43,655 bases of DNA from Parcubacteria group bacterium GW2011_GWB1_45_10 (GTDB taxonomy: Bacteria; Patescibacteriota; Minisyncoccia; UBA6257; Brennerbacteraceae), in assembly GCA_001001185.1 (NCBI GenBank), contig LCKC01000001.1, positions 1-43,655 on the forward strand, given 5' to 3'. The notes under the pieces are model-generated. The model was given only the letters and a program-made list of their open reading frames with translations. It was not told the DNA's origin and did no database searches. Positions 30,185 to 36,048 of this stretch are shown piece after piece. Position numbers and translations under genes: made by a program. Numbering within the stretch: position 1 is the first letter of the stretch; the number at the start of each line of letters is the position of its first letter.

Positions 30185-30212
30185 TTGACTTTTTGGATAT
30201 ATGTGATATAAT
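30185..30212 (+). promoter_or_regulatory. Sigma-70-type promoter (TTGACT-16-TGaTATAAT)
   Basis: The -35 TTGACT is at 30185-30190, the extended -10 TGa at 30204-30206 and TATAAT at 30207-30212. Confidence 0.6.
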
Positions 30213-30428: not shown

Positions 30429-30749
30429 ATGACAAAGATTTATCTGTCTGTTCCTCACACTTTGTCATGGGAAGAGGCTCTGAGCCGCCGCAGCCGCCTG
30501 GCTTACTCTCTGTTCTTGGTTTTCGGTGTTAAAAATCTCGAGATTAAGTGGGACCGCAACGCCGCCGAGTTCAGTTACTGGAAAGACCACAAACACAAGA
30601 CCAAAGACTCGGTTTCTCTGGCAGGCGTCATCGCCATTGCCAAAGAAAAAGTTTTGGTCAACGCTTCAAGCAAAAACGGCGCTGAAAACGCCGACAAGAT
30701 TGCGGAAAAAATCAAACAAGCGGTAAAAAAGGAGTTTGCGACAGATTAA
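30429..30749 (+). CDS. Small hypothetical protein (106 aa; weak resemblance to PHA-system small proteins)
   Basis: The ATG is preceded by AAAGGAGG at 30417-30424 and a terminator lies downstream. The N-terminal pattern (IYLSVPHTLSWEEALSR) is reminiscent of the PHA_gran_rgn family, but this is recall only. Confidence 0.45.
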   Translation: MTKIYLSVPHTLSWEEALSRRSRLAYSLFLVFGVKNLEIKWDRNAAEFSYWKDHKHKTKDSVSLAGVIAIAKEKVLVNASSKNGAENADKIAEKIKQAVKKEFATD

Positions 30750-30824: not shown

Positions 30825-31562
30825 ATGAAATCAAAATTTAAGATCAAATTTAATCTCAATCCTCTTTACGTCTTTCTTTTCACTATTAACACGGAACAAG
30901 AAGAAGAACCGTTTAAGGGTTGGGCAGATTTTACCAATAAAATATGGGAAGAAGATTCTAAAGTCTTCCTGCTTTTAGCGGGTGCTGCTGAGCGCGTCTT
31001 GTTTATTAAGAATAAAATTGAATATAAAAATGCTTATGCGAGAAAACTAAAAATGCTCGCAAAAATCAAAAAAGCCCCCGAATATAAACGCCTAATCAAG
31101 GAGTCGAAAAAATACCTAAGGTTCGTTAAGACTCAATGGAGGAAAAATGAAAAAAGGGCAACGAGTTTATTGCAGGAATTATCGGGACTGCCTCTGCCAC
31201 AACATACGGTTACGGTTAATATTACCCACCCCAAACTTCGTAATGGAGTGACCTTCGACGACAAAAACATTGTTTGGGGGCACTCAGAAGATTTTAGGAA
31301 TTATTCCACTGTTTATATCTGCCACGAGATTCTTCATATTATGACAAAAAATAATAATTCAGATATCTTTCACGCGGTGATTGAACTTCTGGCAGATAAC
31401 GAGATCAGGATTAGACTAAATAAAAAAGGGAGGTATTTTCAGTACGACGGCCACAAATATCTCAAACGAATAGAGAGAAAGCTCCTCCCCTCATGGAAAC
31501 AATATCTTAAACAAGATAACAAAAATATGCTGGAGTTTATCGAAAAACATAAAAAGAAATAA
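30825..31562 (+). CDS. Hypothetical HExxH-motif protein (putative Zn metallopeptidase)
   Basis: 245 aa. YICHEILHIM contains HExxH, with a downstream acidic/His stretch (HAVIELLADNE). The gene is visibly more AT-rich than its neighbours. Its ATG lies 6 nt after TGaTATAAT. Confidence 0.55.
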   Translation: MKSKFKIKFNLNPLYVFLFTINTEQEEEPFKGWADFTNKIWEEDSKVFLLLAGAAERVLFIKNKIEYKNAYARKLKMLAKIKKAPEYKRLIKESKKYLRFVKTQWRKNEKRATSLLQELSGLPLPQHTVTVNITHPKLRNGVTFDDKNIVWGHSEDFRNYSTVYICHEILHIMTKNNNSDIFHAVIELLADNEIRIRLNKKGRYFQYDGHKYLKRIERKLLPSWKQYLKQDNKNMLEFIEKHKKK

Positions 31563-31590
31563 AAGAGGCTAGTTAATTAGCCTCTTTTTT
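31561..31590. terminator. Bidirectional intrinsic terminator between convergent HExxH and rSAM genes
   Basis: An 11-bp stem (aaaagaggcta gttaat tagcctctttt) followed by tttttt. Confidence 0.75.
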
Positions 31591-31591
31591 C

Positions 31592-32851
31592 TTACTCATT
31601 ACTACAAGGATCGTATTTGCATCTTGGCTGCTGCCCATAAAGACCAAGCCCAAAGTTTATACTCAAGGCACGACAGTCCATACAAGCATACCGAAACTCA
31701 CAATCACGGCATCGTTCAACATAATCCAAGGTGATGTTCCAGTATTGCCTTTCCAGCACTTGAACTACGGATTTCACGCTTCCTTGCTTTAAATTGCCCA
31801 CTGTCTGCTCTCTAGCAAAAACACAAGGAAACACATCTCCTTCCGCGGTAACAGCCATTTCCCCTCTCCAACAAGGGTTGACCATCCTTGCCTGGTGAAA
31901 AAACTGTGGCGTAACTGTAAAGCAAAACCCGTACTGCATTGGAATGCGAGGTTCGATTGCGTTACTACACCCTCGACCAACGGGACGAACATCGTCAGGT
32001 TCGAAATCCCCACCTTCCAAAAGCAGCCCTTCACGACGCAGAAACGCTTCAATCTCTCCCATATCGTTTTCGTTCTGGTTCATTCTGATAACACCAATCC
32101 GAAAATCGATACCGAGTCCCTGAATTTTTTTTATGTTGTGATACCAACGCTTGAAGCTTCCCGCAATCTGGGTGCAGGCATCGTGAACTTCTGGACAATG
32201 ACCTAATAAAGTCGTAGCGACATGAATTCCGTAATGCTTTATTCTGTCAATATCTTTATCCTTCAGAAGGGTCAAGTTTGTGAAAATCTCAATGTCTGAA
32301 AAACCAAGAGTCACGGCGCATTCAACCATTCTCCAGAGTTGTCGATGCATGAAGGGTTCACCGCCAACAAACTGGACGCGTTCACAACCAAACTGCCTGG
32401 CCTCTTTTAAAGTTCTTTGGGCAATTCTCACATCCATAAAGACTTTCAATAGAGGACAAAAACCTCCATAACAATGGATGCATTTCTGGTTACATTGGTT
32501 GGTTACCTCAAGCCAAAGGAACTCAAGCATGGGCACGGTTCCGGTTTTCATAACAGAGGTATCTTGATGGAAAAGCCTTCCATCAATACCGTTGTCTCTG
32601 ATCAACCGGAAGACGCTGGACGCATAATTTTCTAAAAAGACGAGTTTCTCCTCAACATTTTCGTCTTCTTGAGCAAGGGCGAACAATAATTCACCACTAG
32701 CCGAATCAATACTGACCAGAGATTCCTCCAGAAGATCGTACAGCGCCCACTTTCGCGCACCCTCAACAATAAATAGGTGATCCCCAATACTTACAGCCTT
32801 CCTGTTGTTTTGAGTTGGTACTGACAAATCACACCTACTTTCTGATTTCAA
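31592..32851 (-). CDS. Radical SAM / SPASM-type peptide maturase with N-terminal RRE-like domain
   Basis: CNQKCIHC (Cx3Cx2C) is followed by GGEP. The C-terminus has Cys-rich auxiliary-cluster motifs (CWRGEMAVTAEGDVFPC, CRDCEFRYACMDC, later C). An N-terminal extension of about 100 aa resembles PqqD/RRE (LFIVEGARKWALYDLLEESLVSIDSASGELLFAL). The start is TTG 32849-32851, 4 nt after AGGAAG. Confidence 0.85.
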   Translation of the reverse strand: MKSESRCDLSVPTQNNRKAVSIGDHLFIVEGARKWALYDLLEESLVSIDSASGELLFALAQEDENVEEKLVFLENYASSVFRLIRDNGIDGRLFHQDTSVMKTGTVPMLEFLWLEVTNQCNQKCIHCYGGFCPLLKVFMDVRIAQRTLKEARQFGCERVQFVGGEPFMHRQLWRMVECAVTLGFSDIEIFTNLTLLKDKDIDRIKHYGIHVATTLLGHCPEVHDACTQIAGSFKRWYHNIKKIQGLGIDFRIGVIRMNQNENDMGEIEAFLRREGLLLEGGDFEPDDVRPVGRGCSNAIEPRIPMQYGFCFTVTPQFFHQARMVNPCWRGEMAVTAEGDVFPCVFAREQTVGNLKQGSVKSVVQVLERQYWNITLDYVERCRDCEFRYACMDCRALSINFGLGLYGQQPRCKYDPCSNE

Positions 32852-32855
32852 TCTT

Positions 32856-32882
32856 CCTGAGGCCGGGGTTCCGGCCTCAGGG
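32856..32882 (-). promoter_or_regulatory. 11-bp GC-rich stem-loop between precursor and rSAM genes
   Basis: cctgaggccgg ggtt ccggcctcagg. There is no U-tract. Its 3' arm overlaps the AGGAAG upstream of the rSAM TTG start. Confidence 0.65.
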
Positions 32883-32921
32883 TTTATACATGATGAACCG
32901 AGAAAAGATATGAAATCCCTC

Positions 32922-33089
32922 CTATTTGCGCTTCGGTTTACACGGAGTGCATCCTGGCTTACAGCATTGTGCCAGGATAGTCCGCCTTACCTTCCGCGGT
33001 TCAACGACGGTCTTCCCGCGTTTGGAAATTGATCTCCAAAGCGGTACTTTGGCGTTGGTCGCCAGAACAGTCAGCTTACTGGTTGCCAT
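32922..33089 (-). CDS. Cys-rich 55-aa putative RiPP precursor peptide
   Basis: Own translation gives MATSKLTVLATNAKVPLWRSISKRGKTVVEPRKVRRTILAQCCKPGCTPCKPKRK. GGAGG lies 6 nt upstream of the ATG, a TTGACA-17-CATAAT promoter lies upstream, and the rSAM gene is directly downstream. It is below the ORF-track length cutoff. Confidence 0.6.
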   Translation of the reverse strand: MATSKLTVLATNAKVPLWRSISKRGKTVVEPRKVRRTILAQCCKPGCTPCKPKRK

Positions 33090-33120
33090 ATGGCACCTCC
33101 TTTATTCTTGTAATGTGTAG

Positions 33121-33149
33121 ATTATGCTACTTTTATTCTTCTTTGTCAA
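33121..33149 (-). promoter_or_regulatory. Promoter of the precursor-peptide gene (TTGACA-17-CATAAT)
   Basis: On the plus strand, tgtcaa is at 33144-33149 and attatg at 33121-33126, with an exact 17-nt spacer. Confidence 0.6.
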
Positions 33150-34455: not shown

Positions 34456-36048
34456 TCACTCAGTTTTCTCTTGGGCGTCCGGCTCCTGATTGGTTTCCGG
34501 CTCGGGTTTTTTCTCTGTTTTTTTGCCGGTGATGATGTTTTTCAGCATCTCGGAAAGGCTTTGTTTTTTGTCTTTTTTCTCTTCTTTGCCTTTTTTGAGA
34601 TTTTTCAGGCATTTTTTGCAGTAAATCGAGCGTTTCGGATCAGGCTGGAAAGGCACCCTGACTTCCCGGCCGCAAGAACTGCAGGTGGCTTCAAACAAAA
34701 CACCGCTCATGGAAGCGAAGTTGCTTTCCTGGGGCTCAAACTTGTCTTCTTCAATGTTTTCCGGATTAGCCGGCTGCAGCCATTCAGCAATCTCGGCTTG
34801 GACGATTTTTTTGTTGGTCCCGTATTTAAGCTGGCAAAGATTAATGATTTCTTTGGCGTAGCTCACCGGCGGAAGATTCTGCGGCGGCAAAGTTGAAGCC
34901 AAAAACGGCGACGACGTAATGCCGTCAATCATCATCTTGGTGTAAAAATAATGGTTCGGCAGATTAACCAGATCCTGGACGCCGATATTCGGCAAAAACT
35001 GCGGCTCAATTATTTCGGCGTCTTTGGCGCCGACCCGGAAATTAATGTGCGTGCCGACATTGCCGAAAATGGCGGCGGTAATCTCTTCCGGAACCTGCTC
35101 AATATACTGATGCCCCATAATCAGGCTCAAACGATATTTTCTTGCCTCCGCCAGAATCTTCACAAACGACTCCGTGGCAAAGTTCTGAAACTCGTCAATA
35201 ATCAAACAAAAATCCCGCCGTTTGCTTTCCGGAATGTCAATCCGCGACATCGCCGCCTGCTGGATTTTCGTCACCAATAAACCGCCCAAAAGCTGGGCAT
35301 TGGTTTCGCCCACAAGACCGACCGGCAAACGAATAATCAAGATTTTATTTGAATCAATAATCTCGCGCAGGTTAATCTTTGTTTTTTTCTGGCCGATGAT
35401 GTTCCTGATTAACGGATTGGAAGTAAACTGGCCGACTTTGTTCTGGATTGGCGCGATTGCCTCAACCTGAAACCGGTCGTGGTATCTGGCAAACTCGTTC
35501 GTCCAAAAAGCTTTGACCACCGGGTCTTGCAACCCGGAAACAATCATTTTGCGGTAGTCTTTGTCGGAAAGCATGCGGTTGATTGCCAAAAGAGTTGAGT
35601 CCGGATATTCAAGCAACGCCAAAAGAGTGTTGTTCAAAATATACTCCATTCTGGCTGACCAGACATCCGGCCAGATTTTTTTGAAAACCGACAAAAGCCC
35701 GGAAGCGACGTTGTGGCGGAAATCAAAAGCAACGTTTTCCATGACATTGAACGCAATCGGAAACTCGGTGTCCGAAGGATTGATGTAAACCACATCGTCA
35801 ATCCTTTCTTTCGGCACAAAATCAAGCAGCCTTTCGGAAAATTCGCCGTGCGGGTCAATCACGCCGACGCCGCGGTTATTCTGGATATGGTAAATCGCCA
35901 TCGTATCCAGCAAAGTTGTTTTGCCGGAACCGGTCATACCAATGACATAAACATGGCGCCGCAAATCGTCAATCTTAATGCCAAAAGCCGTCCGCTTGTT
36001 CCTGAACTCGGCTTCGCCGATTAAAATCCTGTCTTCTTCACTATTCAT
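34456..36048 (-). CDS. TraD/VirD4/HerA-like P-loop ATPase with C-terminal CxxC-x17-CxxC zinc ribbon
   Basis: Walker A is GMTGSGKTT and Walker B-like is FCLIIDEFQNF, followed by ARKYRLSLIMGHQ. The C-terminus has CSSCGREVRVPFQPDPKRSIYCKKC followed by a Lys/Glu tail. Confidence 0.75.
   Translation of the reverse strand: MNSEEDRILIGEAEFRNKRTAFGIKIDDLRRHVYVIGMTGSGKTTLLDTMAIYHIQNNRGVGVIDPHGEFSERLLDFVPKERIDDVVYINPSDTEFPIAFNVMENVAFDFRHNVASGLLSVFKKIWPDVWSARMEYILNNTLLALLEYPDSTLLAINRMLSDKDYRKMIVSGLQDPVVKAFWTNEFARYHDRFQVEAIAPIQNKVGQFTSNPLIRNIIGQKKTKINLREIIDSNKILIIRLPVGLVGETNAQLLGGLLVTKIQQAAMSRIDIPESKRRDFCLIIDEFQNFATESFVKILAEARKYRLSLIMGHQYIEQVPEEITAAIFGNVGTHINFRVGAKDAEIIEPQFLPNIGVQDLVNLPNHYFYTKMMIDGITSSPFLASTLPPQNLPPVSYAKEIINLCQLKYGTNKKIVQAEIAEWLQPANPENIEEDKFEPQESNFASMSGVLFEATCSSCGREVRVPFQPDPKRSIYCKKCLKNLKKGKEEKKDKKQSLSEMLKNIITGKKTEKKPEPETNQEPDAQEKTE

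What the first reader, a model, noticed from the sequence alone, without database searches (positions are those of the whole stretch)
31592..33149. Untracked Cys-rich 55-aa peptide gene upstream of an RRE-bearing radical SAM/SPASM enzyme: candidate novel RiPP locus
**Peptide gene.** The minus strand at 33089-32922 encodes MATSKLTVLATNAKVPLWRSISKRGKTVVEPRKVRRTILAQCCKPGCTPCKPKRK. It has the best expression signals in the window: TTGACA-17-CATAAT, and GGAGG 6 nt from the ATG. Most backbone genes here have no SD at all.

**Hairpin.** An 11-bp GC hairpin without a U-tract lies 39 nt downstream of the stop. It partly sequesters the AGGAAG in front of the next gene. This is the classic precursor-to-maturase stoichiometry device of RiPP operons.

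**Maturase.** The next gene encodes a 419-aa protein with Cx3Cx2C, a Cys-rich SPASM-like C-terminus and a ~100-aa PqqD/RRE-like N-terminal leader-binding domain.

**Peptide features.** The C-terminal CCKPGCTPC with Thr and Lys neighbours fits thioether (sacti-/ranthipeptide-type) chemistry. The strongly cationic peptide does not look like SCIFF or any other precursor family I can recall.

**Context.** No transporter or dedicated protease is co-transcribed. The locus sits in an island interrupting housekeeping genes (alaS | mnmA) of what looks like a reduced CPR-type genome, where such peptide chemistry is poorly explored.
Basis: partly seen in the sequence, partly recalled or inferred. Interest (0 to 1): 0.88.

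Follow-up and report, generated by a model that had tools for sequence, protein, structure and literature searches.

The report
Cys-x-Pro peptide and radical-SAM maturase
A small, strongly expressed gene for a cysteine/proline peptide sits beside an iron-sulfur radical enzyme and a probable zinc protease that most likely cross-link and trim it, and the same pairing, always with Cys-x-Pro motifs, recurs across many phyla without any name or description I could find, so it is a good candidate for a new family of modified peptides.

Summary
The 55-codon ORF (33089-32922, minus strand), its promoter, its GGAGG, the 11-bp hairpin and the downstream radical SAM/SPASM gene are all present.

Relatives of the enzyme carry an adjacent small ORF, and the closest ones share the core AQCCKPG(P)C(S/T)P. 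The frame is kept through many silent changes.

Three points go beyond the finding:
- **Wider family.** This locus is a minimal member of a large, unnamed family. In at least 53 of 80 genome loci holding a relative of the enzyme, a neighbouring ORF has a Cys-x-Pro repeat core. In 44 such precursors, 94% of 446 Cys have Pro at +2. Two enzymes are fused to such a tail.
- **Third gene.** A conserved, convergent 245-aa gene (30825-31562) has an invariant HExxH motif and is probably the leader peptidase. So "no dedicated protease" needs correcting.
- **Enzyme fold.** The predicted structure has an N-terminal RRE-like domain. The best fold matches are CteB, SkfB and SuiB.

No curated family model or searchable paper covers the peptide, the enzyme clade or the 245-aa protein.

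The chemistry is untested. Thioether cross-linking at Cys-x-Pro is the best guess. I rate it a new variant of a known kind, of moderately high interest.

The parts
33121..33149 (-). Sigma-70-type promoter: TTGACA (33149-33144), 17-nt spacer, CATAAT (33126-33121)
   Evidence: It matches 11 of 12 positions. It is one of three sites at 11/12 or better in the whole window.
33096..33100 (-). Shine-Dalgarno GGAGG, 6 nt upstream of the peptide ATG
   Evidence: Read directly from the sequence. Only 1 of 38 long ORFs in the window has any SD-like motif. The relatives L001 and L162 also have GGAGG here.
32922..33089 (-). Precursor peptide gene, 55 aa. The inferred leader is residues 1-41 (33089-32967), with a P-x-W motif and a conserved RTILAQ. 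The inferred core is CCKPGCTPCKPKRK (32966-32925).
   Evidence: ORF. Homolog P0111 scores E 1e-11 and lies upstream of the enzyme homolog. Ten aligned precursors share invariant Q41, C43, P45 and C50. Synonymous divergence supports the reading frame.
32856..32881 (-). Intergenic stem-loop: CCUGAGGCCGG / AACC / CCGGCCUCAGG, 11 bp, no U-tract
   Evidence: Fold z-score is -3.8 to -4.8. A strong hairpin of unrelated sequence sits at the same place in L001, L162, L165, L166, L168, L003, L006 and L007. Some of these are followed by U-runs.
31592..32851 (-). RRE-radical SAM-SPASM maturase. The longest ORF is 419 aa; the likely true start is TTG 32827, giving 411 aa.
   Evidence: Pfam Radical_SAM and SPASM both score above their cut-offs. 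There are 109 homolog clusters, and 3196 representatives at E<=1e-30. The AlphaFold model has pLDDT 89. Top Foldseek matches are CteB, SkfB, SuiB and TigE.
32594..32797 (-). N-terminal RRE/PqqD-like domain (residues 19-86): four beta-strands then three helices
   Evidence: DSSP on the model shows this topology with pLDDT about 95. Foldseek aligns the full length to CteB and SuiB, which carry N-terminal RREs. The PDB profile match to CteB starts at query position 28. hhalign to the PqqD domains of relatives is weak but in register, with P = 4e-4.
32471..32494 (-). CX3CX2C radical SAM cluster motif (C120, C124, C127)
   Evidence: Invariant in 31 homologs.
31619..31873 (-). SPASM domain with seven invariant Cys: C327, C343, C381, C384, C390, C393, C411
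   Evidence: Pfam SPASM scores 26.9 bits against a cut-off of 21.5. The Cys are invariant in the alignment, and no eighth conserved Cys is present.
31561..31588 (.). Bidirectional terminator-like hairpin shared by the convergent enzyme gene and the 245-aa gene
   Evidence: The terminator scan finds it on both strands.
30825..31562 (+). Conserved 245-aa HExxH protein, the putative leader peptidase. The HEILH motif lies at 31323-31337.
   Evidence: tblastn finds homologs next to the enzyme gene in 15 other loci, 13 of them distinct (gene tables). H167, E168, H171, H183 and E193 are invariant and E187 nearly so in 29 sequences. The model has pLDDT 94.6. Nearly all top Foldseek matches are zinc metallopeptidases, but none is significant (E >= 0.12).

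Best explanation
**What it is.** This is a three-gene cassette for a ribosomally made, post-translationally modified peptide.

**Proposed steps**
1. The 55-aa precursor is transcribed from a strong promoter and, unusually for this genome, translated from a strong SD.
2. A stem-loop after the peptide gene lowers or stabilises read-through. The peptide message therefore outnumbers the enzyme message.
3. The enzyme's N-terminal RRE-like domain binds the leader, which carries a P-x-W motif and RTILAQ.
4. The radical SAM/SPASM core acts on the Cys residues of the Cys-x-Pro units in the core CCKPGCTPCKPKRK.
5. The most likely reaction is intramolecular Cys-sulfur-to-carbon thioether cross-linking, as in sacti- and ranthipeptides, with the thiolate held at the open site of an auxiliary cluster.
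6. The conserved convergent HExxH protein then removes the leader, probably after the invariant Gln. This leaves a small, rigid, cationic cross-linked peptide.

**Shown here**
- The genes and signals exist.
- Peptide, enzyme and the HExxH gene co-occur.
- The Cys-x-Pro rule holds.
- The enzyme has the stated domain architecture.

**Inferred**
- The peptide is the substrate. This is strongly supported, including by enzyme-substrate fusions.
- The reaction type.
- The peptidase role.
- The biological function of the product.
For: **The peptide is the enzyme's substrate**
- Adjacent conserved precursors occur beside the closest relatives.
- In 53 of 80 genome loci, an ORF with at least 3 CxP units lies within 1.3 kb of the enzyme gene. 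That is 54 of 2128 nearby ORFs against 3 of 3068 distant ones. A further scan adds longer, partial or fused examples in seven more loci.
- In 44 precursors, 94% of 446 Cys have Pro at +2.
- L042 and P0157 are enzymes fused to a CxP tail.

**Enzyme type**
- Radical SAM and SPASM are present, with seven conserved auxiliary Cys.
- The best sequence match among solved structures is the sactisynthase SkfB, at 2e-22.
- The best fold matches are CteB (9e-15, full length), then SkfB, SuiB and TigE.
- From my knowledge of the CteB structure: seven rather than eight auxiliary Cys leaves an open iron site that binds the substrate Cys.

**Other parts**
- The N-terminal domain has RRE topology.
- The hairpin is conserved as a structure.
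- The HExxH neighbour is supported.
- Expression signals are confirmed.
Against: - No chemistry was or could be tested.
- Every NCBIfam hit to a characterised maturase is far below its cut-off. Examples are StsB at 72 bits against 625, AlbA at 50 against 850, and CcpM at 54 against 500. The bit scores do not separate thioether-forming from other SPASM enzymes.
- anSME ranks just behind the RiPP maturases by fold, and its substrate motif also starts Cys-x-Pro.
- Sequence-level RRE detection is weak. Pfam PqqD gives no hit and hhalign gives 34% probability.
- The fold evidence that the 245-aa protein is a peptidase is not significant (E >= 0.12). The gene is absent from the Negativicutes loci and from L167.
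- No exporter lies in the cassette, so a secreted role is unproven.
Confidence: 0.55

Rival explanations
1. This is the same cassette and substrate, but the chemistry resembles the anaerobic sulfatase-maturing enzyme. The enzyme abstracts the Cys C-beta hydrogen in Cys-x-Pro units and converts Cys to formylglycine, or to another oxidised Cys product. The result is a reactive aldehyde-bearing peptide rather than thioether rings.
For: - The substrate rule Cys-x-Pro (94% of Cys) matches the first three positions of the sulfatase motif Cys-x-Pro-x-Arg (established knowledge).
- anSMEcpe is a strong fold match, with E 3e-11 and a target-normalised TM-score of 0.57-0.61.
- Both enzymes are radical SAM/SPASM.
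Against: - anSME does not appear at E<=0.001 in the profile search of PDB sequences, where SkfB, CteB, PqqE and SuiB do.
- No anSME model is among the top 25 NCBIfam hits for any of four family members.
- The family has an N-terminal RRE that anSME lacks.
- It has seven conserved auxiliary Cys, whereas anSME has eight (for the family; the anSME count is my knowledge).
- Arg at +4 is not conserved.
Confidence: 0.12
2. This is the same cassette, but the radical chemistry targets Pro or the variable residue. Possibilities include epimerisation, C-C or C-O cross-linking, or dehydrogenation. The Cys residues then serve as metal ligands or disulfides in the product, giving a metallothionein-like or redox-active peptide. 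Such a product could work inside the cell, as PQQ or mycofactocin precursors do, rather than as a secreted antimicrobial.
For: - Pro is as conserved as Cys.
- Negativicutes cores carry up to 28 Cys. There the two-gene cassette sits at a fixed housekeeping site next to tig-clpP-clpX, with no protease or exporter.
- SuiB, TigE and the epimerase EpeE are also good fold matches.
Against: - Cys is the only universally reactive residue in the unit.
- The nearest solved relatives by sequence and by fold are thioether-forming.
- Several relatives carry Tat-type signals, and one has a peptidoglycan-binding domain. These point to export of the modified product.
Confidence: 0.2
3. The small ORF is fortuitous or unrelated. 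The enzyme is a non-RiPP radical SAM protein, for example one acting on a cofactor or tRNA, that merely lies next to it.
For: - The enzyme falls below the cut-off of every named NCBIfam family, and heme and NirJ models score as high as the peptide maturases.
- The genes sit between housekeeping genes.
Against: - The peptide frame is conserved through synonymous change.
- Precursor and enzyme co-occur in dozens of loci across phyla.
- Enzyme-substrate fusions exist.
- The enzyme has an RRE-like domain.
- The peptide gene has the strongest expression signals in the window.
Confidence: 0.03

Closest known systems
CteB / SCIFF ranthipeptide system (thermocellin; PDB 5WGG, 5WHY)
   Same: Both have the RRE-radical SAM-SPASM architecture, and CteB is the best full-length fold match. 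The profile match extends into the N-terminal domain. Both act on a Cys-rich precursor encoded next to the enzyme. Both leave an auxiliary cluster short of one Cys ligand (for this family; the CteB detail is my knowledge).
   Different: Sequence identity is only 16-17%. The precursor is unrelated to SCIFF, and no SCIFF or CteB family model is hit. The core rule here is Cys-x-Pro rather than Cys...Thr. The CPR clade has an extra HExxH gene.
Sactisynthases SkfB, AlbA and StsB
   Same: SkfB is the best sequence match among solved structures, at 2e-22. StsB is the top NCBIfam hit and AlbA also appears. All work on Cys-donor peptide substrates.
   Different: Scores are far below family cut-offs: 72 against 625 for StsB and 50 against 850 for AlbA. 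SkfB has a twitch domain rather than a full SPASM (my knowledge). The precursors show no similarity.
PapB / freyrasin (repeat-unit ranthipeptide with Cys-X3-Asp units)
   Same: The logic matches: a core built of short tandem units, each containing one Cys, processed by a single RRE-rSAM-SPASM enzyme. PapB forms Cys/Asp thioethers (PMC9413430 abstract).
   Different: The unit here is Cys-x-Pro with no conserved acidic acceptor. No PapB-type model appears among the hits.
Anaerobic sulfatase-maturing enzyme (anSME)
   Same: Both are radical SAM/SPASM, with a strong fold match. The anSME substrate motif begins Cys-x-Pro (my knowledge).
   Different: anSME has no RRE and eight auxiliary Cys (my knowledge). 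It gave no sequence-level hit. It acts on one site in a large sulfatase, not on a dedicated small peptide.
Grasp-with-spasm maturase (NCBIfam TIGR04193)
   Same: It gives the best match to the C-terminal SPASM region: 70-105 bits in four family members.
   Different: The score is below the cut-off of 175, and only the last ~100 residues match. No ATP-grasp gene lies nearby.
QhpD / QhpC (cytoplasmic radical SAM cross-linking of a Cys-rich subunit before export)
   Same: Some family members' substrates carry Tat-type signals (SRRGFIK, SRRKFLKK). This fits modification in the cytoplasm followed by export of the finished product. The QhpC analogy is my knowledge.
   Different: No quinohemoprotein genes are present. 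The window peptide has no signal peptide. No QhpD model appears among the top hits.

Membership tests
Radical SAM superfamily | CX3CX2C cluster motif and a core-domain match above the Pfam cut-off | tested here: met
   PF04055 scores 63.3 bits against a cut-off of 29.5. C120, C124 and C127 are invariant.
SPASM subfamily | C-terminal seven-Cys motif for two auxiliary clusters | tested here: met
   PF13186 scores 26.9 bits against a cut-off of 21.5. Seven Cys are invariant, with a CX10GX4C element followed by CX2CX5CX2C and a final C.
RRE-fused RiPP maturases | N-terminal PqqD-like winged helix (beta-sheet plus three helices) that binds the leader | tested here: met
   The predicted topology is four strands plus three helices at pLDDT about 95. 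The full-length fold match is to CteB and SuiB. Sequence evidence is weak: no Pfam PqqD hit and hhalign P = 4e-4. Leader binding itself was not testable.
Sactipeptides / ranthipeptides | Cys sulfur linked to an alpha-carbon (sacti) or to a beta/gamma-carbon (ranthi) of an acceptor residue in the product | not testable with these tools
   This needs MS/MS and NMR of the modified peptide.
SCIFF/CteB, AlbA, SkfB, StsB and CcpM equivalog families (NCBIfam) | Score above the curated equivalog cut-off | tested here: not met
   All score 50-72 bits against cut-offs of 300-850, for the window protein and three relatives.
Known RiPP precursor families | The peptide matches a curated precursor model | tested here: not met
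   Six precursors, including the window's, gave no Pfam or NCBIfam hit. The RefSeq and GenBank name is "hypothetical protein".
anSME | No RRE, eight auxiliary Cys, a Cys/Ser-x-Pro/Ala-x-Arg site in a sulfatase, and a family model hit | tested here: not met
   An RRE is present and only seven conserved auxiliary Cys. Arg at +4 is not conserved. anSME is absent from the PDB profile hits and from the top NCBIfam hits. Only the fold is similar.
Grasp-with-spasm system (TIGR04193) | Score above cut-off and an adjacent ATP-grasp ligase | tested here: not met
   It scores 70 bits against a cut-off of 175, over the C-terminus only. There is no ATP-grasp neighbour.
Gluzincin-type zinc metallopeptidase (for the 245-aa protein) | HExxH plus a downstream Glu ligand on a thermolysin-like catalytic fold | tested here: inconclusive
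   HExxH and E193 are invariant and E187 nearly so. Nearly all top fold matches are M4 or M1 peptidases, including the lanthipeptide peptidase EryP. However E >= 0.12 and TM is about 0.3. There were no Pfam, NCBIfam or PDB sequence hits.

The most novel reading that the evidence does not exclude
Cys-x-Pro-repeat peptides and proteins, together with their dedicated RRE-radical SAM-SPASM enzymes, form a large and so far undescribed post-translational modification system. It spans Patescibacteria/CPR, Negativicutes, Latescibacterota, Desulfobacterota, Planctomycetota and archaea, and it installs a new kind of Cys/Pro-directed radical modification. In CPR it comes with a previously unrecognised family of small HExxH leader peptidases.
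Probability: 0.3. Interest if true: 0.85.

Novelty: new variant of a known kind. Interest (0 to 1): 0.66.

Why it matters
- **Natural products.** If the inference holds, this gives a simple sequence rule (Cys-x-Pro units) and a ready enzyme/substrate set for a new family of radical-SAM-modified peptides. The set includes cultured Sporomusa and Pelosinus strains and natural enzyme-substrate fusions.
- **CPR biology.** It would show that reduced episymbiotic genomes keep a three-gene cassette for a tiny cationic modified peptide. The peptide gene carries the strongest expression signals in a 43-kb stretch. That suggests a role in interaction with hosts or competitors.
- **Enzymology.** It adds a new, small HExxH family as a candidate leader peptidase.
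- **Annotation.** It gives a handle for labelling hundreds of "hypothetical" short ORFs.

Tried and rejected
- **Literature.** Ten full-text searches used radical SAM, RiPP or SPASM with CPR, Pelosinus, Sporomusa, CXP, Cys-Pro, proline repeats and literal core sequences. None found a paper describing this family. Two key papers were not held. Subscription-journal work may therefore have been missed.
- **Two RiPP papers read in full text.** Neither the graspetide survey nor the Mitchell-lab RRE-rSAM compendium mentions a Cys-x-Pro group.
- **Other profile libraries.** PADLOC and PHROGs gave nothing beyond generic viperin-like radical SAM hits.
- **PDB search with the 245-aa family profile.** No hits, even at E 10.
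- **Metagenome scan.** It returned mostly distant radical SAM proteins and added only a few useful loci.
- **Rejected: AGGAAG as the enzyme's SD.** It lies 1 nt from the TTG at 32851, and homolog N-termini favour the start at 32827.
- **Rejected: a compositional island.** GC is 0.35-0.47 across the cassette and 0.38-0.51 in the flanks. Relatives sit between different housekeeping genes.
- **Rejected: the 106-aa ORF (30429-30749) as part of the cassette.** It has no homolog in any related locus.
Full report
**Observation**

The minus strand at 33089-32922 encodes the stated 55-aa peptide.
- The promoter TTGACA-17-CATAAT lies at 33149-33121 and matches 11 of 12 positions. My own scan finds only two other sites that good in the whole window.
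- GGAGG lies at 33100-33096, 6 nt before the ATG. Only 1 of 38 long ORFs in the window has any SD-like motif. Many instead have a TAnAAT-like box a few bases before the ATG. The peptide gene is therefore a real outlier in expression signals.
- The 11-bp stem-loop lies at 32881-32856. The intergenic RNA folds better than all 200 shuffles, with z = -3.8.
- The next ORF (32851-31592) has Pfam Radical_SAM at 4e-17 and SPASM at 5.9e-6, both above their cut-offs.
- The window comes from a Parcubacteria genome of the GW2011 set. The peptide is deposited there as a hypothetical protein, KKT86480.1.

**Is the small ORF a gene, and does it go with the enzyme?**

A protein search found one homolog, P0111 (63 aa, E 1e-11). 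It shares RTILAQCCKPGCTPC and lies directly upstream of the enzyme homolog P0004 on a Saccharibacteria contig.

I then fetched contigs for other close enzyme homologs and read their upstream spacers. This gave more precursors, some never called as genes:
- ...RTIQAQCCKPGPCGPKTCKPRDRTRSS
- ...TLAQCCKPGPCSPKW
- ...VLAQCCKPGPCSPKGR
- ...SQAQCCKPGACSPK
- ...ILAQCCNPGPCSPKW
- ...QSQCCKPGPCSPKW
- ...QGQRCRPGPCSPKW
- ...VSAQGCNPQTPSC

In the alignment of ten precursors, Q41, C43, P45 and C50 are invariant, and a P-x-W motif recurs in the leader.

Between the window and L001, 30 residues are conserved and 17 of them use different synonymous codons. The reading frame is therefore under purifying selection.

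**A much larger family**

A scan of one genome per species with a profile of the enzyme returned 80 loci at 29-63% identity.
- In 53 of them an ORF with at least three Cys-x-Pro units lies within 1.3 kb of the enzyme gene. That is 54 of 2128 nearby ORFs against 3 of 3068 more distant ones.
- A looser scan adds longer, partial or fused examples in seven more loci.
- Cores include (CFPRQ)n, (CWPRQQ)n, (CRPCPPSQ)n and CNPN runs in Sporomusa, Pelosinus, Propionispora and other Negativicutes. PCRP runs occur in Latescibacterota and CDP runs in Peptococcaceae. Shorter cores occur in Roizman-, Woese-, Jorgensen- and Saccharibacteria.
- Over 44 precursors, 94% of 446 Cys have Pro at +2. The middle residue is free, and Cys spacing is mostly 4-6. 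These precursors were picked for having at least two or three such units, so the figure is partly circular. Even so, it is far above that threshold.
- An archaeal enzyme (L042) and P0157 carry a Cys-x-Pro tail fused to their own C-terminus. This is strong evidence that these cores are the enzyme's substrate.
- An exhaustive profile search gives 3196 representatives (50% identity clusters) at E<=1e-30. The best 150 score E<=1e-84, almost all over the full length including the N-terminal domain.

**The enzyme**

Thirty-one homologs share the invariant CX3CX2C and seven further invariant Cys in the SPASM region. No eighth conserved Cys is present.

The AlphaFold model (pLDDT 89) shows four strands and three helices at residues 19-86, ahead of the barrel. 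This is the RRE/PqqD topology.

| Comparison | Result |
|---|---|
| Foldseek against the PDB | CteB first (E 9e-15, full length), then SkfB, SuiB, TigE; then anSMEcpe |
| Profile against PDB sequences | SkfB best (2e-22); the CteB match runs from query position 28 |
| Pfam PqqD on the window protein | Not detected |
| hhalign to the C-terminal PqqD domains of longer relatives | Weak but in register (P = 4e-4) |
| NCBIfam | Hits to StsB, AhbD, NirJ2, WgkB, CcpM, AlbA, all far below cut-off |

The clade therefore belongs to no named family.

The likely start is TTG 32827, giving the 411 aa that JGI called. This matches homolog N-termini and follows AGGTG. AGGAAG sits only 1 nt from the TTG at 32851, so I doubt that the hairpin works by hiding an SD.

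**The hairpin**

Nine of the ten peptide-enzyme spacers I folded contain a strong stem of 9-19 bp. The sequences are unrelated, and some stems are followed by U-runs. The structure, rather than the sequence, is conserved.

**A third gene**

The 245-aa ORF at 30825-31562 is convergent to the enzyme gene and shares its terminator hairpin at 31561-31588.
- It has homologs next to the enzyme gene in 15 further loci, 13 of them distinct. The orientation varies but the gene is always adjacent.
- Only 36 homolog clusters exist. Those that carry a source name come from CPR (Berkelbacteria, Patescibacteria). None has a Pfam domain.
- H167-E168-x-x-H171, H183 and E193 are invariant, and E187 nearly so.
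- The model is confident (pLDDT 94.6). Nearly all of its best fold matches are zinc metallopeptidases: LasB, vibriolysin, thermolysin, M1 aminopeptidases and the lanthipeptide peptidase EryP. None is significant, with E >= 0.12.
- I read it as a probable minimal gluzincin-like leader peptidase, at about 60% confidence.
- The Negativicutes loci lack it. There the two-gene cassette sits at a fixed site beside tig-clpP-clpX.

**Mechanism**

Shown:
- A strongly expressed precursor.
- An RRE-rSAM-SPASM partner.
- A Cys-x-Pro substrate rule.
- A conserved HExxH neighbour.

Inferred: leader binding by the RRE, radical modification centred on the Cys of each Cys-x-Pro unit, and leader removal.

Thioether formation is the best guess, for three reasons:
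- Cys is the only universally reactive residue in the unit.
- The nearest solved relatives, SkfB and CteB, make thioethers.
- A seven-Cys complement leaves an open auxiliary-cluster site, as in CteB (my knowledge of that structure).

An anSME-like Cys-to-formylglycine reaction is the most interesting rival, because the sulfatase motif also begins Cys-x-Pro. However, the family has an RRE, lacks the eighth Cys, lacks Arg at +4, and shows no sequence-level affinity to anSME.

Tat-type signals on some relatives, and a peptidoglycan-binding domain on one, suggest that the modified products are exported in those lineages. The window peptide has no signal and no exporter nearby, so its destination is unknown.

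**Novelty**

- None of the six precursors tested, nor the four enzymes or the 245-aa protein, reaches the cut-off of any specific Pfam or NCBIfam (June 2026) family model; the enzymes pass only the generic Radical_SAM and SPASM domain models.
- RefSeq calls the Sporomusa ovata precursor hypothetical.
- Ten literature searches found nothing. The library omits most subscription-journal papers, so I cannot exclude a prior description (see the tried-and-rejected field).
- The kind of system, an RRE-rSAM-SPASM enzyme with a Cys-rich precursor, is well known. The precursor family, its Cys-x-Pro rule, the CPR-specific HExxH partner and possibly the chemistry are new.

**Verdict**

I rate it a new variant of a known kind, with interest 0.66.

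Noticed in passing
whole window (38 long ORFs): Only 1 of 38 long ORFs has an SD-like motif at -20..-4. Many have a TAnAAT-like box 5-12 nt before the ATG, for example TGTGATATAAT just before the ATG at 30825. This suggests widespread leaderless or SD-independent translation in this genome.
   Followed up: partly
L042:1138-2688 (archaeal MAG) and protein P0157: In both, the radical SAM/SPASM enzyme is fused at its C-terminus to a Cys-x-Pro-repeat tail. These are natural enzyme-substrate fusions.
   Followed up: partly
L008:5227-5769 (Deltaproteobacteria MAG); also L029:2727-3035 and L068:3560-3928: The Cys-x-Pro-repeat partner in L008 is a larger protein with a twin-arginine-type signal (SRRGFIK) and a C-terminal PG_binding_1 domain (E 1e-13). 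L029 (SRRKFLKK) and L068 (RRRLL) also look Tat-targeted.
   Followed up: partly
L032, L021, L048 and other Negativicutes loci: The enzyme/precursor pair sits at a fixed site divergent from tig-clpP-clpX, usually with an amino-acid permease gene on the other side (L021, L048). Trigger factor carries an FKBP prolyl-isomerase domain. That may be coincidence, or it may be relevant to a Pro-rich substrate.
   Followed up: no
L001:208-1026: In the Saccharibacteria relative, a DUF5678 protein and a retropepsin-like aspartyl protease (PF13650, 3e-7) lie just upstream of the precursor gene. The contig ends before the place where the HExxH gene would lie.
   Followed up: no
proteins P0172, P0180, P0187, P0199, P0206 and others; L010:2768-4351: Longer relatives (about 500-550 aa) carry an additional C-terminal PqqD domain (PF05402, 5e-21 in L010) on top of the N-terminal RRE-like domain.
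   Followed up: no
window 34456-36048 (-): A 530-aa TrwB/HerA-like P-loop ATPase (coupling-protein type) has a C-terminal treble-clef zinc finger and lies just beyond mnmA.
   Followed up: no
window 30429-30749 (+), with promoter-like site at 30185: An orphan 106-aa ORF lies between alaS and the HExxH gene and is preceded by TTGACT-16-TATAAT (11 of 12). It has no family hit and no homolog in any related locus.
   Followed up: partly
L012:3252-3998 (Stomatobaculum MAG): The Cys-x-Pro repeats (QCNPCHPCYPDQITDG, three copies plus variants) form the N-terminal half of a ~220-250-aa protein (the start codon was not determined). Its C-terminal half has no Pfam match.
   Followed up: no
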